A stretch of 64,000 bases of DNA from NCBI GenBank assembly GCA_009995545.1, contig JAACPI010000002.1, positions 2,965-66,964 on the forward strand, given 5' to 3'. The notes beneath the pieces were generated by a model. The model ran no database searches. It was given only the letters and a program-made list of their open reading frames with translations, and was not told the DNA's origin. The stretch comes from a bacterium (GTDB taxonomy: Bacteria; Patescibacteriota; WWE3; 2-01-FULL-39-13; JAACPI01). A program made the translations under genes and the position numbers. Positions 353 to 14,133 of this stretch are shown one piece after another. Positions within the stretch are counted from its first letter, which is position 1, and each line of letters opens with the position of its first letter.

Positions 353-1828
353 CTACCTAGAAATAATATCTAGAAGAAATAACAAATCCGACATTCCTAC
401 ATTTGTATCGCCGTCTAAGTCATACTTAGGATTATTATCATTAGGGTGACCGACTATTTGTGAGAGTAATTCTAATAAATCTAGCATATCTACCTGACAA
501 CTATCACCAACTACATTTCCTGGGCAGGGTGAAGGCAAAGTACAGGAACTATTTTCATCAATTAATCCGTCACAGTCATTGTCCACACCATCAGTTATTT
601 CTTTGGATCTATTGGAGTATTTACAATCTCCAACTACATCATTTTTAGTAAGTTCACCATAATACCCAACCATATTTAATGAGTCAGGTTCAATACGGCT
701 AAATATATCCCGTAATCCCGACTCAAAAGCCCCTAGACTAATCCATCCTGGAGCTAAGTTAGATCCCATTTTCCAGGCACCATACTGCCCACCTTCCGGC
801 TCTAGATTTCCATCCAAAAAATCTCTAAATTTTGGTTGTGTAGAATCCTGATTCCAAATCTTTTTAGTTAAGGTATTTGACAAGCTTTTAATATCGTTAC
901 GAGTATAGGTAATACCCGATCTGTAAAACTCTGTAGTGGCATACACATAATCGTTAGCATGACTAACATCGGAAGGTTGGCACCAAGAGTGATTACTATA
1001 ATCCTTACAAGCAGGCACCCCTGGAACATTTACAAAATAACAAGTAGGGTAGTCTGTTTTAATCTCTTCACAGGAGGTATTACCCCAAAAAACGGTCCCA
1101 TCATTTTCAGGCTGATCAAATTGAGAGGATCTCATTAAATTAGTCTGGACAGTAAGAATGTCTAAAATTTTAAAGGATTCTCCTTTTATCTCTATGTTAT
1201 CCTCACCAGCAAGGTAAAGGTTTAATAAAATTACTGCAGGGTGTGAGACTATGTGGTGTACTGTACTAAAACCAGGTTTAAACCTTTGGTAGCAATTTGG
1301 GTCATTGATAATATCTTTCTTAATCTTTTGAATAATTATATCTGCCCTGTCCTGATAACTTTTATCTAGGCAAGATTCATTTTTTATAATACGAACAACT
1401 CGAGAAGCCTCTTTAATTCCTCTCTGCGTATACAAACAAGATAGTCTAGGAGGGGTTGAAGCGTTATTATCATGATCTAAGGGAGAAAGGCCATTGTAGG
1501 ATTCCCATTCCATAAATCCATCACCATTAAGGTCTTTCTGCCTGTTAAAAGACCCTTCGATTAAACCCAGAGCTGAATCCAGATATTTGGTATCTTGTGT
1601 AGACTCATACATAGAAGACAAACCGGATAAATAAGGAAAGTTTGAGTACGGAACATTTAAAACATACGAGTATCTACTAGAGTTATAGAAGTCAGAGTAA
1701 ATACGGTCAAAATTCGTTTGGTACTCTTTATTGTAGGCTAATGCGTTTTGGGGATACCACGAATATAAAGTTAGGGTTATTAATAGTGTAAGAACAAGGG
1801 AATAAAAAATTTTAGGGTTGACGCGCAT
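353..1828 (-). CDS. secreted protein with C-terminal dockerin-like / Ca-binding repeat module; N-terminal catalytic-looking domain of unknown family
   Basis: N-terminal signal peptide (MRVNPKIFYSLVLTLLITLTLYS); C-terminus has DGVDNDCDGLIDE and DLDGDTNVGMSDLLFLLD motifs resembling dockerin type I / metal-binding repeats. Confidence 0.5.
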   Translation of the reverse strand: MRVNPKIFYSLVLTLLITLTLYSWYPQNALAYNKEYQTNFDRIYSDFYNSSRYSYVLNVPYSNFPYLSGLSSMYESTQDTKYLDSALGLIEGSFNRQKDLNGDGFMEWESYNGLSPLDHDNNASTPPRLSCLYTQRGIKEASRVVRIIKNESCLDKSYQDRADIIIQKIKKDIINDPNCYQRFKPGFSTVHHIVSHPAVILLNLYLAGEDNIEIKGESFKILDILTVQTNLMRSSQFDQPENDGTVFWGNTSCEEIKTDYPTCYFVNVPGVPACKDYSNHSWCQPSDVSHANDYVYATTEFYRSGITYTRNDIKSLSNTLTKKIWNQDSTQPKFRDFLDGNLEPEGGQYGAWKMGSNLAPGWISLGAFESGLRDIFSRIEPDSLNMVGYYGELTKNDVVGDCKYSNRSKEITDGVDNDCDGLIDENSSCTLPSPCPGNVVGDSCQVDMLDLLELLSQIVGHPNDNNPKYDLDGDTNVGMSDLLFLLDIISR

Positions 1829-1871: not shown

Positions 1872-1908
1872 CACACAAAAACAAAAGCAAGAGGGTTTCC
1901 CCTCTTGC
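1872..1908 (-). terminator. rho-independent terminator downstream of 1942..2265
   Basis: gcaagaggg-tttc-ccctcttgc hairpin (1887-1908) followed on minus strand by TTTTGTTTTTGTGTG. Confidence 0.5.
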
Positions 1909-1941
1909 TAGTGCTTATTTTTTTAGTTCAATCGATAATAT

Positions 1942-2265
1942 TTAGTCCAAGTCCACACCATTATCATCACTTTGATCTTCGTGCTCCCCCTGAGCTGAGT
2001 CAGAAGAACTTTTATCTTCTTTTTCGTTATTCTCAGAAGATAATTCCGTTTTTTCGTTTACACTGTCTTCTGATTTAACAATTTCAGAACCAGAAGTAGA
2101 GTCTGGATTTACTTCCTTAGAACTGGTAACTTCTGCCAAAGACCCAGTGGTAATTTCGCCGTTAGCACTTACAGGTACGGAATTGTAATTGGTTAAACCC
2201 GCAAATCCTAACCCGGCAATCACCAAAGCAAGTAAAGACAATGGTATTATTTTTTTCTTATTCAT
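1942..2265 (-). CDS. hypothetical membrane-anchored acidic Ser/Glu-rich protein
   Basis: N-terminal hydrophobic anchor then low-complexity acidic tail; no recognisable motif. Confidence 0.45.
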   Translation of the reverse strand: MNKKKIIPLSLLALVIAGLGFAGLTNYNSVPVSANGEITTGSLAEVTSSKEVNPDSTSGSEIVKSEDSVNEKTELSSENNEKEDKSSSDSAQGEHEDQSDDNGVDLD

Positions 2266-2368: not shown

Positions 2369-3034
2369 CTAAAAAATTTTAAGCTGAGGGTATTTATTGT
2401 TAATAAATTTAAGGACAAAAGAGTCTTTAAAATATAGCTGAACTCTGTAAATAAAAGCTAACCAAATAAACCCGGTTAAAAACCCCGCTAAAACATCACT
2501 TGTATAATGAACACCTAAATATACCCTACTAATACCAATTAATAAAATACAAAAAGAACTTATTATGGCTAGGATTTTAGTGCCTTTTTTATTCTGGGTT
2601 AAAGCAAAGTAAAGATAAGTTACTGACACAAAAAATATTACGGCCAACATACTGTGACCAGAGGGAAAACCAAAGTCCTTTTCAATTACTAAAGGTGAAA
2701 TTAAAGGACGAGAACGCCCAACTAAATTTTTAAATATCACATTAACAACCTCCCCAGTTCCTAAAGTTACTGCAAAAATTAAAGCTAAATATCTTTTATT
2801 TTTTAAATACAAATAAAGTAAGATTAAGATTGAGGTAAACACTACTCCATACATTCCCAAAAAACTTACAAACCTCATTAAAATATTTAATACACTGCTC
2901 CTTAAAGAATATAAAAATAACCAAATAGGTTGATCGTAAAAAAAGATTGCGCCATTCATAACTTTAAAAGTTAAATAGCCCAAGAGTAAGAGACAAAATA
3001 AACTGAATACTGTTAACCTAACCTTAAGTGACAT
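2369..3034 (-). CDS. PAP2 superfamily phosphatase (phosphatidic acid / undecaprenyl-PP phosphatase type)
   Basis: All three PAP2 motifs: KNLVGRSRP (Kx6RP), FPSGHS (PSGH), SRVYLGVHYTSD (SRx5Hx3D); multiple TM helices. Confidence 0.75.
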   Translation of the reverse strand: MSLKVRLTVFSLFCLLLLGYLTFKVMNGAIFFYDQPIWLFLYSLRSSVLNILMRFVSFLGMYGVVFTSILILLYLYLKNKRYLALIFAVTLGTGEVVNVIFKNLVGRSRPLISPLVIEKDFGFPSGHSMLAVIFFVSVTYLYFALTQNKKGTKILAIISSFCILLIGISRVYLGVHYTSDVLAGFLTGFIWLAFIYRVQLYFKDSFVLKFINNKYPQLKIF

Positions 3035-3043
3035 ATCTTTAGT

Positions 3044-4045
3044 TTAAATTGGAAGTAAAACTATAAACTCAGAACCCTTATTTAATCGGGATTTTACAAA
3101 GATCTTCCCACTATGATAATTAACTATAGATTGGCAAATAGACAACCCTAATCCGTACCCCTTTATTACAGATCTGGAATTTTCCACTCTATAAAACCGA
3201 TCGAAAATGTTTGATTTATTATTAGCACTTATGCCCATACCTGTGTCTCTTACTGATATTTTTGCCCAGTTTCGGTCTCTGACCATATCTAAAGTAATAT
3301 TACCCTTTACCGGGGTGTATTTAATAGCATTGTCAGTAAGATTGTAGAAAAGTTGACCTAAGAGCTGTTTATTACCTCTCGTAACTAAATTTTCAGAGGG
3401 TGATTTTAAAGTGACCTTAAGATTTTTTTCTTTAATATAGGGGTTTAATCTGAAAACTATGTTAGAAATTAAATCTGTTAGATCTACATTTTCACTAAAA
3501 TTTATATTGTTTTTTGGATTTTCTCTTGCTAAAAACAAAAGATTTTCAACAAGCGTTGATAAGCGAACCATTTCTTCGTTACTACTTTTTAAAATATTTT
3601 TATACTCTTTAATAGTCCGGGTCTTTTTTAAAGCCACCTCTGTTTCACCTTTTATTATAGCCAAAGGAGTTCGTAATTCATGCGAGGCGTCAGATACAAA
3701 TTGCTTTTGTTTTTCATGGGCAACTTTAATAGGCTCTAAAGACTTTTTAACTAGAAACCATGAAGTGGTAGGTACAACCAATAAAGACACCCCATTGATA
3801 ACTAATAGTAAAGCAAAAAGCTGTTCTAAAGCTATGTCCCCCGCAACAGTAACAACTGTAGTTTTAACATCCTCAAAGTCATCTGTGTCTCCGAGTTGAC
3901 TGTGCCGTTCTTTTACCTGACTAATGTAGTCCTCTCCGAAAGACTTTGTCATCCAAAAATACAAACTAAAACTAAATGCCCAAAATAAACTCAGAAACAG
4001 TAAAGAATAAAGGAGTGTTAGTTTTATTTGTACCTTTGTAAACAT
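3044..4045 (-). CDS. sensor histidine kinase
   Basis: Two N-terminal TM helices, H-box SHELRTPL, HATPase motifs DNAIKYT, DTGMGI, GYGLGLS. Confidence 0.85.
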   Translation of the reverse strand: MFTKVQIKLTLLYSLLFLSLFWAFSFSLYFWMTKSFGEDYISQVKERHSQLGDTDDFEDVKTTVVTVAGDIALEQLFALLLVINGVSLLVVPTTSWFLVKKSLEPIKVAHEKQKQFVSDASHELRTPLAIIKGETEVALKKTRTIKEYKNILKSSNEEMVRLSTLVENLLFLARENPKNNINFSENVDLTDLISNIVFRLNPYIKEKNLKVTLKSPSENLVTRGNKQLLGQLFYNLTDNAIKYTPVKGNITLDMVRDRNWAKISVRDTGMGISANNKSNIFDRFYRVENSRSVIKGYGLGLSICQSIVNYHSGKIFVKSRLNKGSEFIVLLPI

Positions 4046-4046
4046 A

Positions 4047-4724
4047 TTATTTCTTAAGCGAAAATATATATCCAGAACCCCTTTTGGTGTGAATAAGGTC
4101 TTGGGATTTTTCTGTAACTTTTAGCTTTTTTCTAAGGTATTTAACATAGGTTTCCACAATATTTGAAAACCCTTCATAATTATAGTCCCAAACATGTTCT
4201 AAAATATTTGTTTTGGTTAATACAATATCCTGATTTCGCATAAAGTAGTCCAATAAACTGTATTCGCGCGAAGTAAGAACAATCTCCTTTTTGCACCTAA
4301 ATACGGTTTTTGTTGCGGGGTTAAGCAACAGGTCATCAAGGGTTAAAATAACTGGATCTGCTTTTTTATTTCTACGAATTAACGCCCTTATTCTTGCTGA
4401 AAGTTCATCATAAGAAAAAGGCTTAGTAACAAAATCATCTGCCCCTGCATCTAAACCCGAGACTTTGTCGGAAATTGAATCTTTTGCTGTAAGCATTAAA
4501 ATTGGAATCGATGTGTTGGTTTTTCTAATAGATCTACAAACTTCTTCTCCACTTATTTTTGGAATCATTAAATCTAAAATAACCAGGTCATACTCATTTA
4601 TTTCGTATTTTTCTAACGCCTGCTCACCATCGCGGGCAATATCTACAGCGTAGTGTTCTTCAAGTAATCCTCTACGTAGTAAATTTGCTATTTTTTCTTC
4701 GTCCTCAACAATTAGTATTTGCAC
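4047..4724 (-). CDS. OmpR-family response regulator
   Basis: Receiver domain (LIVEDE, DLVILDLMIP, TAKD) plus winged-helix C-terminus (GYIF); abuts the HK gene. Confidence 0.9.
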   Translation of the reverse strand: MQILIVEDEEKIANLLRRGLLEEHYAVDIARDGEQALEKYEINEYDLVILDLMIPKISGEEVCRSIRKTNTSIPILMLTAKDSISDKVSGLDAGADDFVTKPFSYDELSARIRALIRRNKKADPVILTLDDLLLNPATKTVFRCKKEIVLTSREYSLLDYFMRNQDIVLTKTNILEHVWDYNYEGFSNIVETYVKYLRKKLKVTEKSQDLIHTKRGSGYIFSLKK

Positions 4725-4772
4725 CGAATCATTTTACCAAACTAATATGGGAATTGTGTGAGAAAACAAAAA

Positions 4773-5678
4773 CTAGTAGCAAAGGATATAAAAGTAGCTA
4801 GTTGTAGATTTAAAAGGTTCTTTAACAATTTCACCAGAATTAGTATTTTGCATAATCTCACAAGAATCGTTAAATGCACCCTTTGTAAAATTTAAAAATA
4901 ATCCCAAGCTCTCGGGAGAATCCACATTATTATTACCCATACTTAAAACAGTCGAGTAATCGTTATTCTGTAGAGCTTTTAAAGTTTGGCTATCGTGTTC
5001 TCTAGCCTGATAAGAATCTAGGTAATGGGAAAAATCTATAGAAAAAACAACAACGGTATTCTCTTTAATATTTATAGAAATCTGCTCATAAAATTTATCT
5101 AAATTTTCTTCGGTAATACCTGGCTTTAAAATAAAAGGTGTAATAGTAGTATTAGGAAGGTAAAAATGAAAATAAGGTATTAATTCTGTAACAGAGTGTT
5201 CCTTTGATAAAACCTGAGTATCCTCTCCAGCCCATTTAATTTCAGTTATCAGGCTTTTAACTAAACCGGGGTCTGTGTTGCTCTGCCCATACATACTCTT
5301 GAAGTTACTAGTAGTTGTAATCACACTGTAATCTCCCATATTCGGGTGATTTGGGCCAATTAAGATTACATTTGTAGGTTTTTGAAGCTGTAACCTTTTA
5401 AAAAAATCTGCGTGGATAAAAAAGGGCAATAAGTGGTGAGGTATAACTGCAGTTTTTATAATACGGGGATTTGAATCGGGTATAAAGTCTAACTCTAAAC
5501 CCTTTTGCAAATAAAAAGGGTTAAAACTGCTTAAATCTATAAAATCTGTATTTGTGGGCTGACCAGATTCAAACGGAACAGTAATTTTTGGATTCCAAGT
5601 AAAATAATTTAAATAATAAAATATTGCAGTGATTATTAAGAGCGATATTACTATAAAAAGTAGTTTTTTAAACCTCAC
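4773..5678 (-). CDS. Memo-like protein (AmmeMemoRadiSam system protein B / MEMO1 family) with N-terminal membrane anchor
   Basis: Blocks matching MEMO1: AVIPHHLLPF (vs IIAPHAGY), VILIGPNHPNMG (vs IFILGPSHH), KEHSVTELIPYF (vs DEHSIEMHLPY), VVFSIDFSHY (vs VVSSDFCHWG); N-terminal TM helix; start overlaps upstream gene by 11 nt. Confidence 0.6.
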   Translation of the reverse strand: MRFKKLLFIVISLLIITAIFYYLNYFTWNPKITVPFESGQPTNTDFIDLSSFNPFYLQKGLELDFIPDSNPRIIKTAVIPHHLLPFFIHADFFKRLQLQKPTNVILIGPNHPNMGDYSVITTTSNFKSMYGQSNTDPGLVKSLITEIKWAGEDTQVLSKEHSVTELIPYFHFYLPNTTITPFILKPGITEENLDKFYEQISINIKENTVVVFSIDFSHYLDSYQAREHDSQTLKALQNNDYSTVLSMGNNNVDSPESLGLFLNFTKGAFNDSCEIMQNTNSGEIVKEPFKSTTSYFYILCY

Positions 5679-8600
5679 TATCCTCGTTTAACTCCGTGTT
5701 GGTTTTTTTACCTTTTAACTTTAAGAATGACTTTGTTTTTTGACTATATTTAGTTCTAAAAAAGATAGCTAAAAGAAATATAAATAGTACCGCAATAGAA
5801 AGAAAAATATATTTCTGGTACTCTTTGGTAAAGTTTTTGGTGATACTTGTTAATGACTTCTTAGATTCTAAATCAATTTTTACCTTTTCAGAAGCTGATC
5901 TTGCGTTTACTTCGGGAGAATACATAACTTCAGCATAGGCTCCAGGTGTTGTAAATTCACCCGCATTTATAACCCTTGCTGTGTAACTAAATACTTCCCT
6001 ATCTAAACTATTTTGGTACTTTATTACGCCGTCTGGAAGATATTCTATATCTCCCAAATTATAATCATTGTTATTGGCCTCGTTTTTTAGTTTGGTGTTA
6101 ACGGGAATCATTCCAGAGGGAAGTTTATCCTCAATAACACTATACCTATAAGGGCTTCCGGAAGTATTAACTTCAATCATCACATTTACTAAATCTCCAA
6201 CGGCTATGTTGTAATCCGGGCCTTTAGTATTAATATATTTTCTAGAAATTGTTATACCGTTAGAGGCCCCCTTATCATTTTGGTCATTCACAAACTCTTT
6301 AAAAAGAACAGTTGAATAGAGTTTACCTTCGCCATTTTTGATTATCTCTACAGTGTTATCTTTATTATTTAAGAGGTTAGAATCTACCTCTATTGTGGAA
6401 ATACTCTGACCTATAGCGGTAACCTTACCATTAGAAATAGAAATGCCGTTGATTGTTACTTCGTAATCAAAAGAGGGATTAACTTCACCAGAATTTTTGG
6501 AGTAACTTATTAAAGCATCAATAACTTTAGCTGTGGCATGGGTGTTAGACCAGTAGTAACCATTATCTTTTAACCCTGCTGTAATATAACGAACAACACT
6601 CTCACTAACTCCTTTAATTTCTTTGGATTGAGTAGAGGAATTTACCAAAGCCTTTAAAGCGGTTGCAGTAGGGATATAGTTAGAGTTGAAACGGTCTTTA
6701 TCACGGTAGTCCCAGTAAATACCATCACCAAGCTCTGATTTTTTACTTAACAATTCGTTTAAACCACTTTTACCGGGGTCTAAAACACCGAGATTGGTAT
6801 TAAGTAAAACTCCTGTTGCTGCAACATCAGCAGGAAGATTTTTAAATAAATCTGCATCTAGGGGTTTAACAGTTAACTTAGAACTAGGGTCAGTAGACAA
6901 TGCGTAAGTAGCAAAGATTCTGTCTATAGTGCTATCTGTATTAATATTATTCGCTTTGGTAAGAAGATAGCTTTTAGCCAAAGAAAGCTTATATTCGTCC
7001 ATTTCGTAACCCAAATTTTTAGACCTAATTAAATATTCGTACACATAAGAGCTTACATAGGTATCAGATTCACCATCTCCCCACCATCGCCAACCTCCAT
7101 CGTATTTTTGTAACTCCATAAGTCGGGAAATACCTTTATTTATAATTTCATCTAGGTTTTTAGCTTGTTTAAGATTAGGGAATATATTTGGATTTTCTGC
7201 AGCAATTATTGCAGGAACTAATCTACTAGTTGTTTGCTCAACACACCCATATGGATAGTAAATAAGATAGTCCATTTGAGAGAGTAAAGATGTGGCTAAA
7301 GAGGGGGCTAAGTTAATCTCTAGTTTAGAAATCTTTGGGTCATAATTTTTGCTTGGGGTGTACTTAAAGCTCGAAGAATCCGAGGAATTAAAGGCATATT
7401 TATTCCAGTATCCAGGGGTAATAGTTGGGATAGAAACCTCAACCTCGTCCGATAAATTACTTGATAGCGCTGAAAATTTAATTTTAGTATCGCCAGCCTC
7501 TTTTGGAACAAGTTTCCAAAAAAGTTGAGATATTTCTTTAGTAGCTAAACTAATTTGTTTACTCAAATTAGATTTTATATCTAAATTTTCAGACTCTAAC
7601 TTTGCCTCAATTTCAAGAGTATTTTCAGAAAAGTTTTGTATTAAAGAAGACAAAATTATACTATCCCCTACCCTTAAAATATTTGGCAATATAGGTCTTA
7701 CAACTAGGTCTTTAGATACCGTAATATCTGTTACATTCTGCCCGACGGCAGTGTCTTTAGAGGCTGCTACAGCTAAGATACTCCAGGTGGTTAAGTTGTC
7801 TGGAACCTTAAAGTTTATGTTAGCATTGCCATTTGAATCAGTAATCACGCTAGGGTTCCAGTAAGCAACATCTTTGAACTCAGATCTAAGGTTTCCTTTG
7901 TCATTATGAACCCATACGCCTCCTGCTATATAAGTATGCTCATTTTCAATTTCTAAATTGTAGACCTCAAAACTTCCTTTTATGTACTCTACAGAGCCTA
8001 CGGTTATTTGTTGGCCGTTGATACCTACTAAATGATCACCAATTTCAGTATCTGCAGCTTCTTGCCAGGTATCATTTAAATTTAAAATATGCTCAGGAGT
8101 AACTTTTAAACTCCCATTTATAATAAGGTACCCAGATACTGTGTGCTTAAAAGTTTTTAGTACCTTAGCCGTTACCATGTCTCCATTTTCATCACTACTT
8201 AAGGTACTTACAAAATCCCCAACTTTAATATCTTGAATATTTTTTGTTTTACCATTTTGCATAAGTACGTCTGTGTCACCAGCAAAACACCCTCCTCCTC
8301 TTTCTGCAGTATTTACAACTATGCCCTCTAGAGAGTGAGAATAAGTAGTATTGTTATATCTTTGATACCAAAAGGTATCGAAAATATTCCCCATTCTACT
8401 AGTAGACAACTCAAACAAGGCTTTATCCACAACCCAAACTGTTACCTCAGATGATTTATTTGCACCTGTTAGATCTTTTGTATTAATTTTTAATTCAACG
8501 TTTTCACCGGGTCCATACTTAGTAGAAGAAGGTAACAAAGAAACATTAAGTTTTTTTGACTCAGAAGAAATATCTAAAGAGTCGCTGCTAATAATGTATT

Positions 8601-10824
8601 GATTTAAAGAAAAGGTCCCCACTTTAAAATAAATATTTGGGACATAAGAATCTAAAGCTTTCTCGGTAATAGTGTTAATGCCGGTATTTAAAGAAACCAC
8701 TTTATATTTATGCGTGTTAGCTCTTTCAACACTAAATAAAACATCTCGAGAGGTATCCGAATTAACTAAAAATTTTATTGTATCTCCAGGTGCGTAGAAA
8801 TCTTTCTCTGCTTTTATGTTAAGGGTGCTATCTAGATCAGAGGAACCAACATATTCTTTATCTGTAGCCCAAGCATAAAATTTATTTTGTAAGATGTTAC
8901 CTTTTTTGTCCGTGCCGCTAATCAGTATTTCGTAAGATCCTGATTTTTGCGGTGTAAAGCTTAGTGTTACCTCCCCCTCTTCATTGGTAGTTCCTACAGA
9001 CTCCAGAATCTTATCTTCTCTTTTTTCGTAATTAGGATACTTAGAATCTTTTGAATAAATTTTTTCCCACCAAATTCTTTTAACCTCGTAAGTTAAATTT
9101 ATGTTGTCTAAATTAACCAAATCAGTTGTATTGTTTTTAAGAATAATATCTAAGTCGACTGGTTTACCTACTAAAGAAGAGTAAGAGTAGTTTTGCTGTA
9201 AAATACTAAATTCTCCGTTGTAAACATACGCGTTAACTGCGTCTTTAACTGGATTACCGCTTTGATCAGTGTAAGACACTTCGATATTATAAATTTGGTT
9301 TCTTAAAGGGTCTTTGTTCTTTACAGCTTTAAAAGATAGTATACCAACCCCATTATTATCTAACTCGAGTTCACCGGTTTTTATTGAATTGCCTACGCCG
9401 TAATTAGGATACCAATGTTGCTCTGTGGATAAAAAGTTACTTAAATAAGTATAAGTATAAGTATCTGCAGAACTTATAGAATAATTTACCTTTGAATTGG
9501 ATAAAGGTTGGCCCGAAAAATAACTACCCTGAATTGAAAAAGCCATATCTTCACCTACTGTATAGGTACTTTTATCGGCCTTTATGCTAATTGTGTACTC
9601 TGGTTTACGGTAATGTTCAACATCAAAGTAAACTAGAGTTTCATAATTTTTTTCATTTGTAGGATCTCTAACAATTAGATAATGAGATTTATTAGTACTA
9701 GTCTTTTCGGGAAGAATAAACTCACCGGAAACACCCCCAAACTCATCTGGAACCTTAGTTTGAGAGTACAAAGGATCTCCCTCCCAAGAGTCTCTAATTT
9801 CAACTATTAAAGGAGCTGTATTAATAGTGTACTGAGAATCATTGTCTTGTCTTGTAAAAACTTTAAAATTTATTTTATCCCCGGGTTTGTAAATAGGTTT
9901 GTCAGTAAAACCAAAGTATTTAAGACTAGGTTTAAATTTGGTAAATCTATCATAGTCGTAAGAGTTCAAATAAACTAAATTAAGAGGGATAAGTGCCACT
10001 TGATCCTTGTAGTAAGCCAGAGCGATATCAGCTTTGGAGTCTAGTTCAGTTTCTATTAAGCCTTGAGATGAAAACTTTTTTTCTGAAATCTTGTCTTTTT
10101 TATCTTTAAGGCTGTATATGTCTAAGTTTCCTTCGTTAATACTCTTACCCGATAAAAAACTCTGTCCCCAAAATACAAAACTATCTTTATTTTGGGTACT
10201 GTAGACCCCAAAGTTAGAAACTATAACGTAAGCTTTAGAACTTTGATCGCCTAAACTAATGTCAATGTAAAATATTCCGGCTTCGTTTATAGGAAGGTCT
10301 ACATTAGCCTCACCGGAGTCATATTCCCCTAAAGGAACATCAAAGTCTAAAGAACCTAAATAGCTGTAACTCTCGTCATTTAATTCGGGCTGTTTGTTAG
10401 TTTGTTCGGTTGAGCCATTATCATTTGTTTTATATTGTAGGTATTTTAAAACTTCCGCTATATCCGTTTTATAAAGAGCAATTTTACCGTTTTTAGCTGT
10501 TTTATAGGCACCAATACGTAAGTTAATTTTATCAACAGAAGAATATGAAATAACCCCACCCATACTGTAGGCATAATCACCCCCAGAAATATGTATATAA
10601 GAAAAACTATTAGACGCAGATGTGCCTAAAACAGTTTTTTCTGAATCATTATTTTGTACAAAAGAATCTTCTTCAATGGAAATATTTTTTGGCGGTACAG
10701 GTTTGTGAATCAATCCAAAATTAAACAGAAAATAATAAGCTAAAGGTACAACTGACAAAAAAATAGCTATTAAATACTTTGAAAACTTTAGAATATTAAA
10801 CTTCGTTTTAGAAGATTTAGGCAT
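5668..10824 (-). CDS. alpha-2-macroglobulin family protein (1718 aa), membrane-anchored at both ends, with embedded Hint domain
   Basis: Size and repetitive beta-rich architecture; thioester-site motif YYPYGCVEQTT (CxEQ, nt 7233-7244) as in bacterial A2M (CLEQ) and eukaryotic GCGEQ; N-terminal and C-terminal TM helices. Confidence 0.75.
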   Translation of the reverse strand: MPKSSKTKFNILKFSKYLIAIFLSVVPLAYYFLFNFGLIHKPVPPKNISIEEDSFVQNNDSEKTVLGTSASNSFSYIHISGGDYAYSMGGVISYSSVDKINLRIGAYKTAKNGKIALYKTDIAEVLKYLQYKTNDNGSTEQTNKQPELNDESYSYLGSLDFDVPLGEYDSGEANVDLPINEAGIFYIDISLGDQSSKAYVIVSNFGVYSTQNKDSFVFWGQSFLSGKSINEGNLDIYSLKDKKDKISEKKFSSQGLIETELDSKADIALAYYKDQVALIPLNLVYLNSYDYDRFTKFKPSLKYFGFTDKPIYKPGDKINFKVFTRQDNDSQYTINTAPLIVEIRDSWEGDPLYSQTKVPDEFGGVSGEFILPEKTSTNKSHYLIVRDPTNEKNYETLVYFDVEHYRKPEYTISIKADKSTYTVGEDMAFSIQGSYFSGQPLSNSKVNYSISSADTYTYTYLSNFLSTEQHWYPNYGVGNSIKTGELELDNNGVGILSFKAVKNKDPLRNQIYNIEVSYTDQSGNPVKDAVNAYVYNGEFSILQQNYSYSSLVGKPVDLDIILKNNTTDLVNLDNINLTYEVKRIWWEKIYSKDSKYPNYEKREDKILESVGTTNEEGEVTLSFTPQKSGSYEILISGTDKKGNILQNKFYAWATDKEYVGSSDLDSTLNIKAEKDFYAPGDTIKFLVNSDTSRDVLFSVERANTHKYKVVSLNTGINTITEKALDSYVPNIYFKVGTFSLNQYIISSDSLDISSESKKLNVSLLPSSTKYGPGENVELKINTKDLTGANKSSEVTVWVVDKALFELSTSRMGNIFDTFWYQRYNNTTYSHSLEGIVVNTAERGGGCFAGDTDVLMQNGKTKNIQDIKVGDFVSTLSSDENGDMVTAKVLKTFKHTVSGYLIINGSLKVTPEHILNLNDTWQEAADTEIGDHLVGINGQQITVGSVEYIKGSFEVYNLEIENEHTYIAGGVWVHNDKGNLRSEFKDVAYWNPSVITDSNGNANINFKVPDNLTTWSILAVAASKDTAVGQNVTDITVSKDLVVRPILPNILRVGDSIILSSLIQNFSENTLEIEAKLESENLDIKSNLSKQISLATKEISQLFWKLVPKEAGDTKIKFSALSSNLSDEVEVSIPTITPGYWNKYAFNSSDSSSFKYTPSKNYDPKISKLEINLAPSLATSLLSQMDYLIYYPYGCVEQTTSRLVPAIIAAENPNIFPNLKQAKNLDEIINKGISRLMELQKYDGGWRWWGDGESDTYVSSYVYEYLIRSKNLGYEMDEYKLSLAKSYLLTKANNINTDSTIDRIFATYALSTDPSSKLTVKPLDADLFKNLPADVAATGVLLNTNLGVLDPGKSGLNELLSKKSELGDGIYWDYRDKDRFNSNYIPTATALKALVNSSTQSKEIKGVSESVVRYITAGLKDNGYYWSNTHATAKVIDALISYSKNSGEVNPSFDYEVTINGISISNGKVTAIGQSISTIEVDSNLLNNKDNTVEIIKNGEGKLYSTVLFKEFVNDQNDKGASNGITISRKYINTKGPDYNIAVGDLVNVMIEVNTSGSPYRYSVIEDKLPSGMIPVNTKLKNEANNNDYNLGDIEYLPDGVIKYQNSLDREVFSYTARVINAGEFTTPGAYAEVMYSPEVNARSASEKVKIDLESKKSLTSITKNFTKEYQKYIFLSIAVLFIFLLAIFFRTKYSQKTKSFLKLKGKKTNTELNEDSEV
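7904..8289 (-). other. Hint (Hedgehog/intein) domain, about 129 aa, embedded in the A2M-like ORF; mini-intein blocks A, B, F, G present but +1 residue is Asp
   Basis: GGG-CFAGDTDVLMQNG (block A, GCF as in Hedgehog), TPEH (block B TxxH), EVYNLEIENEHTYIAGG (block F), VWVHN (block G) followed by DKG. Confidence 0.7.
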
Positions 10825-10941: not shown

Positions 10942-11337
10942 ATGGAAGCAACAAAGCCCTCCCCAAAAGTTTCAAAGCAAGTTCCAGTCAATGATAATAG
11001 TACTTTAATAGCAATTTTAACCTTACTATTTATCAACCCCTTTGGAGTTTTTTATATGTGGTGGAAAGCCTCTTGGCACGTAGGGGTTAAAATTGTTGTT
11101 ACTATTTTTTCGGTACTATCTTGGTTAATCATGATACCTTTAGTTGTTGGGGTAATCCTACTAGCTATAAATCCAGAAGGACGAAATGCAGTTAACACAG
11201 GGATTGCTTGTGGAAAACAATGCCAGAATGCTACAGACATTGAAGCCTGTACACAAGAGTGCCTACAGCAAAATTTAGACATGGAGTTTGTAAACGATGC
11301 AGATGGTGCACAAGAAATACCAAAAATGGAGAAATAA
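10942..11337 (+). CDS. small membrane protein with Cys-rich C-terminal tail
   Basis: Two TM helices; C-terminal CGKQCQNATDIEACTQEC; no family assigned. Confidence 0.45.
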   Translation: MEATKPSPKVSKQVPVNDNSTLIAILTLLFINPFGVFYMWWKASWHVGVKIVVTIFSVLSWLIMIPLVVGVILLAINPEGRNAVNTGIACGKQCQNATDIEACTQECLQQNLDMEFVNDADGAQEIPKMEK

Positions 11338-11426: not shown

Positions 11427-11801
11427 ATGAGTATTCCTAAAAGTCAGTATTCTGTAATATTCTTTTCACTCTTCGTCTTTGTAGGATCTTTTTTTTACTT
11501 TAATAAGAACGACAAACAAAGCACAAATGTTAAAGGAACCACAAAATCAAGAGAGATTCAAACTCCTGTAGATGCTCTAGTAATTAATCAAGACAGTACC
11601 GAAAATTCAGAACAAATTGTATACACCACAAGATTTACTAAAGATCAGCTAGACCAGTATTATAAAGAGCTATCTATTTTAGAGGGTTGGAAACAAATTA
11701 GCCCAGAAAACTATACCTTAGAGGGGAAAAACATTTACATTAAGGTTGAAAAAGAGTCGGAAGAAAAAAACCTAGTGACTTTAGAGTACGAGAACAACTA
11801 A
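11427..11801 (+). CDS. hypothetical membrane-anchored protein
   Basis: N-terminal TM helix, no motif recognised. Confidence 0.4.
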   Translation: MSIPKSQYSVIFFSLFVFVGSFFYFNKNDKQSTNVKGTTKSREIQTPVDALVINQDSTENSEQIVYTTRFTKDQLDQYYKELSILEGWKQISPENYTLEGKNIYIKVEKESEEKNLVTLEYENN

Positions 11802-11810
11802 CCCATTAAT

Positions 11811-13592
11811 TTAAATCCCTCGTCGGTACAAGGCTGCCCAAGGCACATAGTAGCTTTTAAACTCATCGTCGTATAAAACCTTATTATCTTTAGTTACTTT
11901 GCGCGTAAAAGAGGCGCTGGCTCCGTATGAGGGCCACTCTTCTTGAATAATAGTACCTTTTGGTAAGGAAGGATCATCAACATAAACTGGTGCTGGAGGG
12001 GGAACTTGACTTAAGATTTTAGGCTCACTCAAGTCAACAGTTCTACCATCTTTTGTTCCGTAAATTTTAACTTCGAGTTTTTTAGCCTGAATATCTAAAA
12101 CAGTGTATACCAATATATAATTTTCCATATCATTTTTGAAAACGAAATCTACAGAAGGTTGGTAGATTGTGGCATCCAAACCAATAGGAGACTTTTCTTC
12201 GTAATAGCTGACTCTGTAGGCATGCGCCGTTCTTTTAACAATAGGTAAACCGGCATAAAGAGCTGCCCTAAATACAGTTGTGCTAACCTGACAAACCCCG
12301 CCCCCGGTACCTAAAACAGTTCTGCCCTTGCTAATAATGTAACCCGTGTTAAAACCATGTTCTACATCAATTGGACCAACAGCATCATTAAAACTAAAGT
12401 TTTCTCCAGGTGCAACTAAGGTTCCTTTAACTTTTTGGCTGGCAGTGGCAATGTTGCTAATTCTATTAGAACTACTGTGAGAAAAATAAGAAACTCCCTC
12501 TGCGATTAGTTCTTTTATGCCATAATCGTTGGCATTTTGTTCTGGCCGTGTCTCCGAAATGTCTAAAGCAATAGAATTATTAACATCTTTTAAAGCGTTA
12601 AAATCATAGCTTTTAATATACTGGGATAAGTCGTTTTCGAGTGTAGACCTGTTGATTGATAAACCTAGTACAGGAGGACTAAACACAATATCCCCATTTT
12701 CTTTTAGCTCAAACTGGGTACTTTTTGCTTCAACATCAACCTTAGACCCTACAATATTTATAAAAGATAAAATACCATATTTATTTGGGGTAATTAGCAA
12801 CGTGCCTTGGGGGTTTTTACTAAAATCTAATAAAGATAATTTTTCTGAAGAGTTTGCAGAAACCTCAATATTCTTATATGTAAAAAACAAGGGGGACTGT
12901 AAGTAATACTCGACTCCTTGAGTAAAGGGTTCTAGGTCGCTGCCAAATATCGTAGGAACATACTCACTGGTAACTAACTGGTGTTCAAACTTGTAAGTTA
13001 AAAAACCTTTTTCAATATCTTTTTTTACACTTAGTAAATCCAGTAGTAAACCCGGCTGGGCTTCTTGGATTATCAATTCTTCTTGATCATTTAATATAAA
13101 ACTTGCATTACTTACCTGAGGATATTTTTGCGCCGAAAAGTTAGCTAACAAAGAGTTTAATTTAGATTCTTCGTAGTGGTAATCTAAAGAAATATTTTCT
13201 ACAGGTTTAAAAAAACCAATGGCGTAAGTTAACGGGGATAAAAAATTCTGCCTACCAGTGCTAAATACTTTCGTATAAGTACTAGTTAAATCATATTTAA
13301 AGTCTAAATCACTTAAACTTATTTCGTAAACACTCTTCTCTCCGTCTGCTGTAGAAGAAAAATAAAGCTTAATAGTATCCGGGTGATTAAAATATAAGTT
13401 TTTTAGTTTTTCGTGTGCCTCTTTTTTAGTCAGTCCACCAAAATACTGATCATTAACATAAACACCAGGAAGTATACGGGTTGAAAAATAAAAATTGTAG
13501 GAGGCTACAGCAAAAAAACAAATGCTAAAAAAATACAAAGCCCCGCTTATAGGAGGTAAGGAGAACCTTACCTTAGGTAGTTGGTTTATCAT
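11811..13592 (-). CDS. VanW-family protein (YoaR-like)
   Basis: N-terminal TM; C-terminal VanW-type motif GGGVCQVSTTVFRAALYAGLPIV. Confidence 0.65.
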   Translation of the reverse strand: MINQLPKVRFSLPPISGALYFFSICFFAVASYNFYFSTRILPGVYVNDQYFGGLTKKEAHEKLKNLYFNHPDTIKLYFSSTADGEKSVYEISLSDLDFKYDLTSTYTKVFSTGRQNFLSPLTYAIGFFKPVENISLDYHYEESKLNSLLANFSAQKYPQVSNASFILNDQEELIIQEAQPGLLLDLLSVKKDIEKGFLTYKFEHQLVTSEYVPTIFGSDLEPFTQGVEYYLQSPLFFTYKNIEVSANSSEKLSLLDFSKNPQGTLLITPNKYGILSFINIVGSKVDVEAKSTQFELKENGDIVFSPPVLGLSINRSTLENDLSQYIKSYDFNALKDVNNSIALDISETRPEQNANDYGIKELIAEGVSYFSHSSSNRISNIATASQKVKGTLVAPGENFSFNDAVGPIDVEHGFNTGYIISKGRTVLGTGGGVCQVSTTVFRAALYAGLPIVKRTAHAYRVSYYEEKSPIGLDATIYQPSVDFVFKNDMENYILVYTVLDIQAKKLEVKIYGTKDGRTVDLSEPKILSQVPPPAPVYVDDPSLPKGTIIQEEWPSYGASASFTRKVTKDNKVLYDDEFKSYYVPWAALYRRGI

Positions 13593-14133
13593 TATTACTA
13601 TTAGTTAGAGATCTTCGTTTTTGTCTTACCAAAAATCTAGACAGGTCTTCTCCTAAATCTGTATATTTATCAGCGGCCTCTATCAAAGAGCTACTTGTAG
13701 TTTTTCTAAAAGACATGACTTCAACCTTGCATCCTTGATTATTCTGTAGATACCTTACCAAAGGAACATAATCACCATCCCCCCCAACTAAAACTACTAC
13801 GTCTACTTTAGAGGCTAAAGTTACTGCATCTATGGTTAAACCCACATCCCAGTCGCCTTTTTTAGCACCCCCAGAGAAAATTTGGAGCTCTTTAGCTCTA
13901 ACCTCATAACCCTGTGACTCTAGAGCATCAAAAAAGTCCTGCTCTTTTCCAACGTCTGCTTTTATAACATAGGCGAACGCCCGCATTAGATTTCGATCCC
14001 CCACACCCGCAGATAAGGTTTCACCAAAATTTAAGTTAGAGGAGTACAAGTTTTTACAGGAATAGTACATATTTTGAACATCCACAAAAACCCCTACCCG
14101 CTGTTCTTTAAAAGAAATATTTTTATAAGCCAT
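13573..14133 (-). CDS. NYN/LabA-like (PIN-fold) domain protein
   Basis: VGVFVDVQNMYYS ... VVVLVGGDGDYVPLV pattern typical of NYN/LabA; 20-nt overlap with VanW gene. Confidence 0.6.
   Translation of the reverse strand: MAYKNISFKEQRVGVFVDVQNMYYSCKNLYSSNLNFGETLSAGVGDRNLMRAFAYVIKADVGKEQDFFDALESQGYEVRAKELQIFSGGAKKGDWDVGLTIDAVTLASKVDVVVLVGGDGDYVPLVRYLQNNQGCKVEVMSFRKTTSSSLIEAADKYTDLGEDLSRFLVRQKRRSLTNSNNDKPTT

What the first reader, a model, noticed from the sequence alone, without database searches (positions are those of the whole stretch)
2369..5678. Membrane-anchored Memo-like protein translationally coupled to the A2M-like gene, followed by a two-component system and a PAP2 phosphatase
The Memo/AmmeMemoRadiSam-B homolog at 4773..5678 lacks its usual radical-SAM and AMMECR1 partners; none are in the window. 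It has an N-terminal signal-anchor, so it is probably extracytoplasmic. Its start overlaps the A2M-like stop region by 11 nt.

Downstream on the same strand lie an OmpR-type RR, an HK and a PAP2 lipid phosphatase. Together these form a compact envelope-associated module: a trap-like protein, a Memo-like enzyme, signalling and lipid-phosphate turnover. This may be a co-regulated cell-surface defence or remodelling unit.
Basis: partly seen in the sequence, partly recalled or inferred. Interest (0 to 1): 0.55.

Follow-up and report, generated by a model that had tools for sequence, protein, structure and literature searches.

The report
Surface Memo-like partner of bacterial macroglobulin
A membrane-anchored, outward-facing Memo-fold metal-binding protein is encoded right behind a giant alpha-2-macroglobulin-like surface protein in nearly every related locus examined from Patescibacteria (candidate phyla radiation, CPR) and Firmicutes, which defines a gene pair I could not find described and gives the poorly understood Memo family a fixed partner; the two-component system and PAP2 phosphatase next to it are only local neighbours.

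Summary

The A2M-like/Memo-like pair is strongly conserved. It occurs in 77 of 78 testable loci among 80 genome loci from Patescibacteria and Bacillota, usually with a 4-nt overlap. It also occurs in all 14 of the closest metagenomic A2M relatives that have downstream DNA. No other gene recurs next to the pair, and the two-component system and PAP2 are never adjacent to it elsewhere. No radical-SAM or AMMECR1 partner is found locally, so the database name "AmmeMemoRadiSam system protein B" is probably wrong for this clade.

The pocket residues H81, H111, D215, H218 and D253 are invariant. D253 probably replaces the MEMO1 Cys244 metal ligand.

I read this as a third bacterial A2M operon type, beside A2M-PBP1c and mag, found in lineages that mostly lack an outer membrane. 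The Memo-like protein would be a dedicated extracytoplasmic metalloprotein partner. Its chemistry is unknown.

Side finding: a Hint domain sits at the bait position of the A2M-like protein.

The parts
5668..10824 (-). A2M-like surface protein, 1718 aa, with thioester motif, Hint insertion, and N- and C-terminal transmembrane segments
   Evidence: Pfam MG2, A2M_BRD, A2M, TED_complement and bMG10 all score above gathering. A homologous ORF of 1600-1800 aa lies directly upstream of the Memo-like gene in 77 of 78 testable genome loci.
4773..5678 (-). Memo-like protein, 301 aa, GTG start; the conserved partner of the A2M-like gene
5668..5678 (-). 11-nt overlap between the A2M-like stop (TAA 5670..5668) and the Memo-like start (GTG 5678..5676)
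   Evidence: Read directly from the sequence. Overlap is the rule in the family: -4 nt in 41 of 76 loci and some overlap in 51 of 76.
5598..5666 (-). N-terminal signal-anchor helix of the Memo-like protein (aa 5-27)
   Evidence: Kyte-Doolittle 19-mer maximum 2.39. AF2 helix at aa 2-27. Positive-inside bias across 161 family members.
4779..5453 (-). Globular Memo-fold domain (aa 76-300) with the invariant pocket residues H81, H111, D215, H218 and D253, plus H161 in 115 of 120 members
   Evidence: Column counts on 120 sequences. Residue mapping onto MEMO1 H49, H81, H131, D189 and H192. D253 aligns to C244 by hhalign on the C-terminal part.
7903..8289 (-). Hint (bacterial intein-like) domain, aa 846-974, inserted in the Gly-rich linker between A2M_BRD and the PF00207 domain, i.e. 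at the bait position
   Evidence: Pfam Vint, PT-HINT and Hint score above gathering. Cys1 and the terminal His-Asn are invariant, and the +1 residue is not Cys or Thr in any of 19 sequences and is Ser in one. Hint-less Bacillota homologues read straight through the same linker.
7234..7245 (-). CVEQ thioester motif (aa 1194-1197) inside the TED domain
   Evidence: Sequence read directly. CxEQ is present in the Patescibacteria-type partners and absent in the Bacillota-type partners.
10717..10776 (-). N-terminal transmembrane segment of the A2M-like protein (aa 17-36)
   Evidence: Hydropathy 2.05. No Cys in the first 60 residues shown, so there is no lipobox.
5758..5811 (-). C-terminal transmembrane segment of the A2M-like protein (aa 1672-1689), followed by a Lys-rich tail
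   Evidence: Hydropathy 2.58. The segment is conserved in the CxEQ-bearing Patescibacteria-type homologues only.
4047..4724 (-). OmpR-type response regulator; a neighbour, not part of the conserved module
   Evidence: Response_reg + Trans_reg_C. No NCBIfam equivalog cut-off is reached. It is not adjacent to the pair in any of the 95 related loci.
3044..4045 (-). Histidine kinase with two hydrophobic (probable transmembrane) segments and a loop of about 45 aa between them; a neighbour, not part of the conserved module
   Evidence: HisKA + HATPase_c. Hydrophobic segments judged by eye from the sequence. Not conserved next to the pair.
2369..3034 (-). PAP2 lipid-phosphate phosphatase; a neighbour, not part of the conserved module
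   Evidence: PF01569 81.4 bits. Only weak matches to undecaprenyl-diphosphatase models. No homologue found in any related locus.
1886..1909 (.). Strong bidirectional terminator-like hairpin; the first one downstream of the gene string
   Evidence: 10-bp stem with 6 GC pairs. No comparable site lies between 10824 and 2369 on the minus strand.

Best explanation
The Memo-like gene (4773..5678) and the A2M-like gene (5668..10824) form a conserved, translationally coupled two-gene operon. Both products are anchored in the cytoplasmic membrane with their bulk outside the cell.

I read this as a third architecture of bacterial alpha-2-macroglobulin systems, beside A2M-PBP1c (Type I) and the six-gene mag operon (Type II). 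It is found in Patescibacteria and Bacillota, most of which lack an outer membrane.

The A2M-like protein is the protease trap or shield. The Memo-like protein is its dedicated partner: a metalloprotein with an intact and invariant pocket (H81, H111 and D253, plus D215, H218 and H161). The most likely role is a metal-dependent enzyme that works beside the trap on an envelope component or on the trap itself, as PBP1c, MagC and MagB do in outer-membrane-bearing bacteria.

What is shown: family membership, fold, conservation of the pocket, the gene pairing, and the absence of radical-SAM and AMMECR1 partners locally. What is inferred: the outward topology, metal binding, physical association of the two proteins, and the type of chemistry.

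The regulator, kinase and PAP2 genes are probably co-transcribed here but are not part of the conserved unit.
For: Pairing:
- 525 species-representative genomes encode a relative.
- In the best 80 loci, a same-strand A2M-like ORF of 1600-1800 aa ends at the Memo start in 77 of 78 testable cases. The overlap is 4 nt in 41 loci.
- Only these two families recur among 1044 ORFs.
- The reverse test also holds. All 14 of the closest metagenomic A2M relatives with downstream DNA carry a Memo-like gene.
- The Bacillota partners are true A2M-likes: Big_5, bMG3, MG2, BRD and A2M domains.

Protein:
- H81, H111, D215, F216, S217 and H218 are present in 120 of 120 sequences, and D253 in 119 of 119.
- These map onto MEMO1 H49, H81, D189 and H192. 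D253 maps onto C244.
- MEMO1 binds metal through H49, H81 and C244 (PMC9477392).

Topology.

Analogy:
- More distant A2M-likes in the same scan sit next to PBP1c, or next to DUF1175 and a PBP/SpoIID gene. This matches the published Type I and Type II systems, in which the single-pass membrane protein MagB stabilises MagD (PMC5764988).
- The Memo-like domain is fused to a CapA-like PGA_cap domain in five proteins.
- Separate PGA_cap genes lie next to the pair in nine loci, or within about 2 kb of it.
- In L103 a PGA_cap gene occupies the Memo position.
- Together these point to extracytoplasmic envelope chemistry.
Against: - There is no experimental or structural evidence for a complex between the two proteins.
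- No enzymatic activity is known for any Memo-family protein, so the word 'enzyme' rests on residue invariance alone.
- The D253-to-C244 equivalence rests on a weak profile alignment (E 0.019) and on the order of helices. MAFFT placed the residue differently, and I had no model coordinates to check it.
- The A2M-like protein has its own membrane anchors, so a MagB-like anchoring role is not needed.
- Only the best 80 of 525 genome loci were inspected.
- One locus with upstream DNA (L064) lacks the A2M-like gene, although its upstream sequence contains a run of N.
- Nine record titles name Proteobacteria, Acidobacteriota or Bdellovibrionales MAGs, so 'no outer membrane only' is not strictly shown.
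Confidence: 0.55

Rival explanations
1. The Memo-like protein is a non-catalytic anchor or chaperone, like MagB, that stabilises, positions or gates the A2M-like protein. Its conserved pocket would serve only to bind a peptide segment of the partner.
For: MagB is a single-pass membrane protein that stabilises and localises MagD and controls its cleavage (PMC5764988). The overlapping start and stop codons suggest production in matched amounts. To my knowledge, human MEMO1 was described as binding a peptide in a vestigial active site.
Against: The A2M-like protein has its own N-terminal transmembrane segment in most loci, and a C-terminal one in the CxEQ-bearing Patescibacteria type. The full His/His/Asp set is invariant in 119-120 sequences, which is more than a peptide groove would require. 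The fusion to a PGA_cap domain points to enzymology.
Confidence: 0.2
2. The Memo-like protein is a maturation enzyme that acts on the A2M-like protein itself, for example by processing or modifying the conserved Gly-rich acidic linker at the bait position.
For: The linker AE.GG-EGG..R.DF at the bait position is unusually conserved in the Bacillota partners, unlike what I would expect of a promiscuous bait. The pairing is strict and no third gene recurs.
Against: In Patescibacteria the same linker is interrupted by a Hint domain that could cleave itself, yet the Memo-like gene is retained. The PBP1c-linked A2M-likes carry the Hint domain but have no Memo-like gene. No protease or transferase activity is known for this fold.
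Confidence: 0.12
3. It is an ordinary AmmeMemoRadiSam system protein B, as databases name it, and its radical-SAM and AMMECR1 partners lie elsewhere in the genome.
For: TIGR04336 scores 84 bits against a cut-off of 26. NCBI and JGI use this name.
Against: The protein has a transmembrane anchor and predicted outward topology, whereas a radical-SAM partner must be cytoplasmic. The only radical-SAM gene in the window is MiaB, and no AMMECR1 motif is present. No such genes recur in the 80 genome loci. The neighbour is consistently an A2M-like gene. No conserved Cys exists where MEMO1 has C244.
Confidence: 0.03
4. One reading: all five genes (A2M-like, Memo-like, regulator, kinase, PAP2) form one co-regulated envelope defence or remodelling unit.
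For: The genes share one strand. The gaps are 48 nt (Memo to regulator), an overlap (regulator to kinase) and 9 nt (kinase to PAP2). No terminator-like site lies before 1909..1886. The kinase has only a short external loop, as envelope-stress sensors often do (my own reading of the sequence).
Against: The arrangement is not conserved. No PAP2 homologue occurs in any of the 95 related loci. A regulator/kinase pair appears near the pair in only three loci and is never adjacent. The promoter scan carries no information (35 sites found, 35.5 expected).
Confidence: 0.1
5. In Patescibacteria the pair serves attachment to a host cell. The thioester and Hint chemistry would bond the A2M-like protein covalently to a host surface, with the Memo-like protein as a helper.
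For: Cultivated Patescibacteria are epibionts, and their very large surface proteins are proposed to act in host contact (PMC13059738). The Patescibacteria type carries CxEQ and a Hint domain.
Against: The same pair occurs in Bacillota (most record titles name free-living genera or families) without thioester or Hint, so the shared function cannot depend on either.
Confidence: 0.08

Closest known systems
MEMO1 / Memo family (PF01875; human MEMO1 structures 3BCZ, 7KQ8, 7L5C)
   Different: It has an N-terminal membrane anchor with a linker of about 50 aa and is predicted to face outward. It lacks the roughly 20 extra residues MEMO1 carries after H192. No Cys is conserved where MEMO1 has its C244 metal ligand; an invariant Asp (D253) is the probable equivalent. 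Sequence identity is only 16%.
AmmeMemoRadiSam system protein B (TIGR04336)
   Same: It scores above the model's permissive cut-off (84 bits against 26).
   Different: No radical-SAM or AMMECR1 gene lies in the window, and none recurs in the 80 related genome loci. The protein is membrane-anchored and its fixed neighbour is an A2M-like gene. The name is probably an over-extension for this clade.
Type I bacterial A2M system (E. coli YfhM/ECAM, Salmonella Sa-A2M, with PBP1c)
   Same: The A2M-like protein has MG, BRD, TED and MG10 domains and a CXEQ thioester motif (GCVEQ). It is paired in an operon with one extracytoplasmic membrane-anchored partner (PMC5764988).
   Different: The partner is a Memo-fold protein, not the peptidoglycan synthase PBP1c. 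Anchoring is by transmembrane helices, not a lipobox. A Hint domain sits at the bait position. The hosts are Patescibacteria and Bacillota.
Type II A2M system (Pseudomonas MagD in the magABCDEF operon)
   Same: The Bacillota-type partners lack CXEQ, like MagD. A single-pass membrane partner (MagB) is central in that system.
   Different: This is a two-gene operon, not a six-gene one. No DUF1175 or other mag genes are present. The Memo fold has no detected relation to the Mag proteins.
LigB-type (class III) extradiol dioxygenases
Bacterial intein-like (BIL) / Hint domains
   Same: The insert at aa 846-974 has Cys1, a terminal His-Asn and Hint HMM matches.
   Different: The +1 residue is D, Q, N, G or E (Ser in one of 19), so classical splicing is not expected. 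Its host protein and its site (the A2M bait position) were not found in the literature I searched.

Membership tests
Memo family (PF01875) | Family HMM scores above the gathering threshold | tested here: met
   68.2 bits against a cut-off of 27, covering aa 77-285 and profile positions 36-256 of 269.
Memo family (PF01875) | Memo/LigB alpha-beta fold | tested here: met
Memo family (PF01875) | Pocket histidines and aspartate equivalent to MEMO1 H49, H81, D189 and H192 | tested here: met
   H81, H111, D215 and H218 align to them and are present in 120 of 120 sequences.
Memo family (PF01875) | Cysteine metal ligand equivalent to MEMO1 C244 | tested here: not met
   No conserved Cys exists in the family. 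hhalign places the invariant D253 at that position (weak). MAFFT disagrees on the placement.
AmmeMemoRadiSam system, protein B (TIGR04336) | Model scores above the curated cut-off | tested here: met
   84 bits against a cut-off of 26.
AmmeMemoRadiSam system, protein B (TIGR04336) | Occurs together with a dedicated radical-SAM enzyme and an AMMECR1 homologue | tested here: not met
   In the window, the only CX3CX2C ORF is MiaB and no GC[IVL]G motif is present. In the 80 genome loci, no third family recurs. Whole genomes could not be searched.
AmmeMemoRadiSam system, protein B (TIGR04336) | Located in the cytoplasm, where a radical-SAM partner must work | tested here: not met
   An N-terminal transmembrane helix with positive-inside bias predicts an outward-facing domain. 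This is a prediction only.
Type I bacterial A2M system (A2M + PBP1c) | CXEQ thioester motif in a TED domain | tested here: met
   GCVEQ at aa 1193-1197. TED_complement scores 37.4 bits.
Type I bacterial A2M system (A2M + PBP1c) | Adjacent pbpC gene (Transgly + Transpeptidase + BiPBP_C) | tested here: not met
   The neighbours are the Memo-like gene and small ORFs. PBP1c does sit next to more distant A2M-likes such as L096 and L102.
Type I bacterial A2M system (A2M + PBP1c) | Lipoprotein (lipobox) anchoring | tested here: not met
   There is no Cys in the first 60 residues shown. Hydrophobic helices lie at aa 17-36 and 1672-1689 instead.
Type II A2M system (mag operon) | Six-gene operon with DUF1175 and other mag genes, and an A2M without CXEQ | tested here: not met
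   CXEQ is present here, and no mag-type neighbours occur. The mag-type context was seen only at distant loci such as L117.
Canonical intein (for the Hint insert) | Cys/Ser/Thr at position 1, terminal His-Asn, and a Cys/Ser/Thr nucleophile at +1 | tested here: not met
   Cys1 and His-Asn are invariant. The +1 residue is D here and D, Q, N, G or E in 18 of 19 sequences. This fits a BIL-like Hint domain, not a classical intein.
OmpR-type two-component system | Receiver + winged-helix regulator, with an adjacent HisKA + HATPase_c kinase | tested here: met
   Response_reg 107.6 bits, Trans_reg_C 86.7 bits, HisKA 56 bits and HATPase_c 85.5 bits. No NCBIfam equivalog cut-off is reached.
PAP2 lipid phosphatase (PF01569) | Family HMM scores above the gathering threshold | tested here: met
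   81.4 bits against a cut-off of 27.2. The substrate is not assignable: undecaprenyl-diphosphatase models score at most 40 bits against cut-offs above 229.

The most novel reading that the evidence does not exclude
The Memo-fold protein is the obligatory activating or maturing enzyme of a previously unrecognised branch of thioester-protein systems. In the Patescibacteria version, the protease bait has been replaced by a self-cleaving Hint domain. The trap would then fire by autoproteolysis or by transfer of the Gly-Cys thioester, not by attack from a foreign protease, and would bond the cell covalently to a wall or host target.
Probability: 0.12. Interest if true: 0.85.

Novelty: new variant of a known kind. 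Interest (0 to 1): 0.6.

Why it matters
Bacterial alpha-2-macroglobulins are described as two systems of Gram-negative bacteria: Type I with PBP1c and Type II with the mag operon. This locus shows a third architecture, widespread in Patescibacteria and Bacillota. About 2000 protein clusters at 50% identity match the Memo-like family profile at E<=1e-30, and 525 species-representative genomes match the search pattern.

The partner is a Memo-fold metalloprotein. The biochemical function of the Memo family, from bacteria to human MEMO1, is still disputed. A clade with a fixed genomic partner, a predicted extracellular location and what looks like a His/His/Asp site gives a concrete system to test.

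The result also flags a systematic mis-naming ("AmmeMemoRadiSam system protein B") in public annotation.

The Hint domain at the bait position suggests a different way of triggering a macroglobulin.

Tried and rejected
1. Literature. Searches for A2M + Memo, AmmeMemoRadiSam, bacterial A2M in Firmicutes, macroglobulin + Hint/BIL, and macroglobulin + Patescibacteria found nothing on this pairing. A PGA_cap search gave nothing useful. The library covers open-access papers only, so this absence is weak evidence.

2. Third metal ligand. The whole-length profile-to-MEMO1 alignments stop at DFSHY. MAFFT --add placed D253 against MEMO1 D228, with C244 inside an insertion. I prefer the hhalign result on the C-terminal part (D253 to C244) because it keeps the three helices and two strands in order. 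I could not check distances, because model coordinates are not exposed.

3. Foldseek against afdb50 was unavailable.

4. PADLOC gave no hit for the Memo-like, A2M-like or PAP2 proteins, so this is not a catalogued anti-phage system.

5. The promoter scan was uninformative (35 sites found, 35.5 expected).

6. A predicted complex of the two proteins was not attempted.

7. A mirror-tree co-evolution test was considered and dropped, because no control gene is shared across the loci.

8. Oxygen-dependent extradiol dioxygenase chemistry was considered and set aside, because to my knowledge the named hosts are strict anaerobes (Syntrophothermus, Desulfitobacterium, Tepidanaerobacter, Peptococcaceae and others; titles).

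Full report
**What is in the window.** Six co-oriented ORFs lie on the minus strand between 10824 and 1942.
- The A2M-like gene (5668..10824, 1718 aa) has Pfam MG2, A2M_BRD, A2M, TED_complement and bMG10 domains. It also carries a Hint-type domain.
- The Memo-like gene (4773..5678, 301 aa) scores 68.2 bits on PF01875 and 84 bits on TIGR04336.
- An OmpR-type regulator (4047..4724), a histidine kinase (3044..4045), a PAP2 phosphatase (2369..3034) and a 107-aa ORF (1942..2265) follow.
- The Memo GTG (5678..5676) overlaps the A2M stop (5670..5668) by 11 nt. It is the only usable start upstream of the hydrophobic segment.
- The region has 30-36% G+C.
- The same gene string is found on other assemblies of the same organism.

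**The Memo-like protein.**
- One hydrophobic helix (aa 5-27) follows MRFKK.
- An AlphaFold2 model built on 120 homologues has mean pLDDT 94.2. It shows a helix at aa 2-27, a less confident linker, and a globular domain from about aa 76 to 300.
- A family profile finds only MEMO1 among PDB sequences (E 8e-12).
- H81, H111, H161, D215 and H218 align with MEMO1 H49, H81, H131, D189 and H192.
- In 120 family members, H81, P109, H111, D215, F216, S217 and H218 never vary. D253 is present in 119 of 119 sequences.
- MEMO1 holds its metal through H49, H81 and C244 (PMC9477392). The family has no conserved Cys.
- A profile alignment of the C-terminal part places D253 on C244. I verified the MEMO1 sequence used there against PDB chain 3bcz_A.
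- That placement is statistically weak, and MAFFT differs. It does keep the order of three helices and two strands seen in the model.
- If it is right, the site is a His/His/Asp triad, as in iron enzymes of the LigB type.

**Topology.** Of 182 family members with enough N-terminal sequence, 161 have a hydrophobic 19-mer. The mean net charge is +3.25 on the N-side and +0.25 on the C-side, which predicts N-in/C-out. The A2M-like protein has a hydrophobic segment at each end (aa 17-36 and 1672-1689) and a Lys-rich tail, so its body is also predicted to lie outside.

**Is the pairing conserved?**
- A scan of one genome per species (GTDB) found 525 loci encoding a relative. The best 80 come from Patescibacteria (Microgenomates groups, Moranbacteria, Saccharibacteria, WWE3) and from Bacillota (Clostridia, Peptococcaceae, Syntrophomonadaceae, Desulfitobacterium, Tepidanaerobacter, Formimonas).
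- In 77 of them, a same-strand ORF of 1600-1800 aa ends at the Memo start. Two others have no upstream DNA. One (L064) is a true exception, with a run of N in its upstream sequence.
- The two genes overlap by 4 nt in 41 loci and overlap in some way in 51.
- The Bacillota upstream ORFs are A2M-likes by Pfam (Big_5, bMG3, MG2, A2M_BRD, A2M).
- Clustering all 1044 ORFs of these loci gives only two recurrent families, the Memo-like (79 loci) and the A2M-like (76 loci). The next family is a generic ABC ATPase in 14 loci.
- The reverse test used an A2M-based scan of metagenomes. All 14 of the closest relatives with room downstream, plus one distant relative, have a Memo-like gene directly after the A2M-like gene.
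- More distant A2M-likes have other partners. L095, L096, L097 and L102 have an ORF of about 800 aa upstream, shown to be PBP1c for L096 and L102. L117 has DUF1175 plus a PBP/SpoIID gene, and L125 has the same gene layout. L103 has a CapA-like PGA_cap gene in the Memo position.
- These match the published Type I and Type II systems of Gram-negative bacteria (PMC5764988).

**What is not conserved.** No PAP2 homologue occurs in any of the 95 related loci. A regulator/kinase pair appears in three genome loci but is never adjacent to the pair. It is absent from all 15 Memo-bearing metagenome loci. In this genome the genes may still share a transcript. The gaps are short, and the first strong terminator is at 1909..1886.

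**The database name.** PGAP and JGI call these proteins "AmmeMemoRadiSam system protein B", because TIGR04336 has a cut-off of 26 bits. The features that define that system are missing. The only radical-SAM gene in the 64 kb is MiaB. There is no AMMECR1 motif. No such genes recur near the 80 genome relatives. The protein is predicted to face outward.

**Variation in the partner.** The Patescibacteria-type A2M-likes carry CxEQ (CVEQ here), a C-terminal transmembrane segment and a Hint domain. A subgroup (L017, L021, L023, L052) has Hint but neither CxEQ nor the C-terminal segment. The Bacillota type has none of the three. The Memo-like protein is constant across all of these, so its role cannot depend on thioester or Hint chemistry.

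**A further link.** The Memo-like domain is fused at its C-terminus to a PGA_cap (CapA/PgsA-like) domain in L023, L078, P0171, P0177 and P0189. Separate PGA_cap genes lie next to the pair, or within about 2 kb, in nine Patescibacteria-type loci. There is none in this window. From memory, PGA_cap belongs to the metallophosphoesterase superfamily and to the membrane complex that makes poly-gamma-glutamate. The fusion suggests that both domains work on the outer face of the membrane.

**Mechanism.** The shown facts are the fold, the invariant pocket, the strict pairing with codon overlap, and the pairing of other A2M-likes with PBP1c or mag-type envelope genes. The outward topology of both proteins is predicted, not shown.
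- I infer that the two proteins act together at the membrane surface. The A2M-like protein would be the trap or shield and the Memo-like protein its metal-dependent partner.
- My confidence that the pair is a functional unit is about 0.9.
- My confidence that the Memo domain is outside the cell is about 0.8.
- My confidence that it is an enzyme acting on the envelope or on the trap, and not a passive anchor, is about 0.5.
- The substrate is unknown.
- Oxygen-dependent ring cleavage is unlikely, given that to my knowledge the named hosts are anaerobes.

**Family size and novelty.** The family profile matches 2009 cluster representatives at E<=1e-30 and 10764 at E<=0.001; the latter figure probably includes canonical Memo proteins. 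I found no paper on the pairing, within the limits of an open-access library. Each gene is of a known kind. The conserved two-gene system and its extracytoplasmic Memo clade appear to be an undescribed variant.

**Side finding: the Hint domain.**
- Residues 846-974 (7903..8289) form a Hint domain with invariant Cys1 and terminal His-Asn.
- The +1 residue is D, Q, N, G or E in 18 of 19 sequences, so classical splicing is not expected.
- The domain interrupts a Gly-rich linker (AE.GG | Hint | xKGG..R.DFKDTA) between A2M_BRD and the PF00207 domain. Hint-less Bacillota homologues read straight through this linker.
- From my knowledge of A2M and C3 architecture, this is the position of the bait region or anaphylatoxin domain.
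- The same insertion occurs in A2M-likes of low-GC metagenome contigs whose upstream neighbour is PBP1c (shown for L096 and L102; L095 and L097 have the same layout).
- A self-cleaving element at the bait site could replace protease triggering. This is untested.

Noticed in passing
window 7903..8289 (-), aa 846-974 of the A2M-like protein; also L005, L008, L009, L011-L013, L015, L017-L019, L021, L023, L028, L029, L031, L032, L038, L052, L057, L073 and L095-L097, L102: A Hint (bacterial intein-like) domain is inserted at the bait-region position of the A2M-like protein. Cys1 and the terminal His-Asn are invariant, and the +1 residue is not a nucleophile in 18 of 19 sequences. Hint-less Bacillota homologues read straight through the same Gly-rich linker. 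The insertion also occurs in A2M-likes next to PBP1c (confirmed for L096 and L102; L095 and L097 share the layout). It may mean self-cleavage in place of protease triggering.
   Followed up: partly
L023:5036-6805, L078:2170-3993, proteins P0171, P0177 and P0189; separate genes in L005, L008, L019, L029, L048, L086, L089, L094 and L163; L103:14460-15467: The Memo-like domain is fused to a CapA-like PGA_cap domain (PF09587) in five proteins. Separate PGA_cap genes lie next to the A2M/Memo pair, or within about 2 kb, in nine Patescibacteria-type loci. In L103 a PGA_cap gene directly follows an A2M-like gene in place of the Memo-like gene. No PGA_cap gene is in this window.
   Followed up: partly
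window 10717..10776 and 5758..5811 (-): The A2M-like protein has a hydrophobic segment at both ends and a Lys-rich C-terminal tail, so it would be tethered to the membrane twice. The C-terminal segment occurs only in the CxEQ-bearing Patescibacteria-type homologues.
   Followed up: partly
alignment A3, columns around window A2M residues 820-985; Bacillota loci L070, L084, L024, L060, L067, L043, L076 and L006: In Hint-less homologues, the linker at the bait position is a conserved acidic Gly-rich motif (AE.GG-EGG..R.DF), not a variable bait. This hints at a specific recognition or processing site.
   Followed up: no
public annotation of P0001 and relatives: The name 'AmmeMemoRadiSam system protein B' is given to this whole membrane-anchored, A2M-linked clade because TIGR04336 has a cut-off of only 26 bits. 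The system's other two components are not seen near any member examined.
   Followed up: yes
L008, L013, L014, L023, L031, L038, L046, L057, L073: The record titles assign these contigs to Proteobacteria, Acidobacteriota or Bdellovibrionales MAGs. Most carry Patescibacteria-type A2M/Memo loci (CxEQ and/or Hint; L014 is Bacillota-type and L046 is too truncated to type). Mis-binning or recent transfer is likely.
   Followed up: no
window 1942..2265 (-) and 353..1828 (-), with a hairpin at 1886..1909: A 107-aa protein has an N-terminal hydrophobic segment and an acidic Ser/Glu/Asp-rich tail. A 491-aa protein has a hydrophobic N-terminus, many Cys residues and a weak MopE-type metal-binding motif. 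A strong bidirectional terminator separates them. Neither has a confident family match.
   Followed up: no
window 11811..13592 (-) and 13573..14133 (-): Upstream of the module lie a VanW/PG_binding_4 protein (593 aa) and an overlapping NYN-domain protein. Two small divergent membrane-protein ORFs (10942..11337 and 11427..11801, +) sit between them and the A2M-like gene.
   Followed up: no
L064:1-4598: This is the only locus with upstream DNA but no A2M-like gene before the Memo-like gene. The upstream stretch contains 87 N, so a scaffolding gap is possible.
   Followed up: partly
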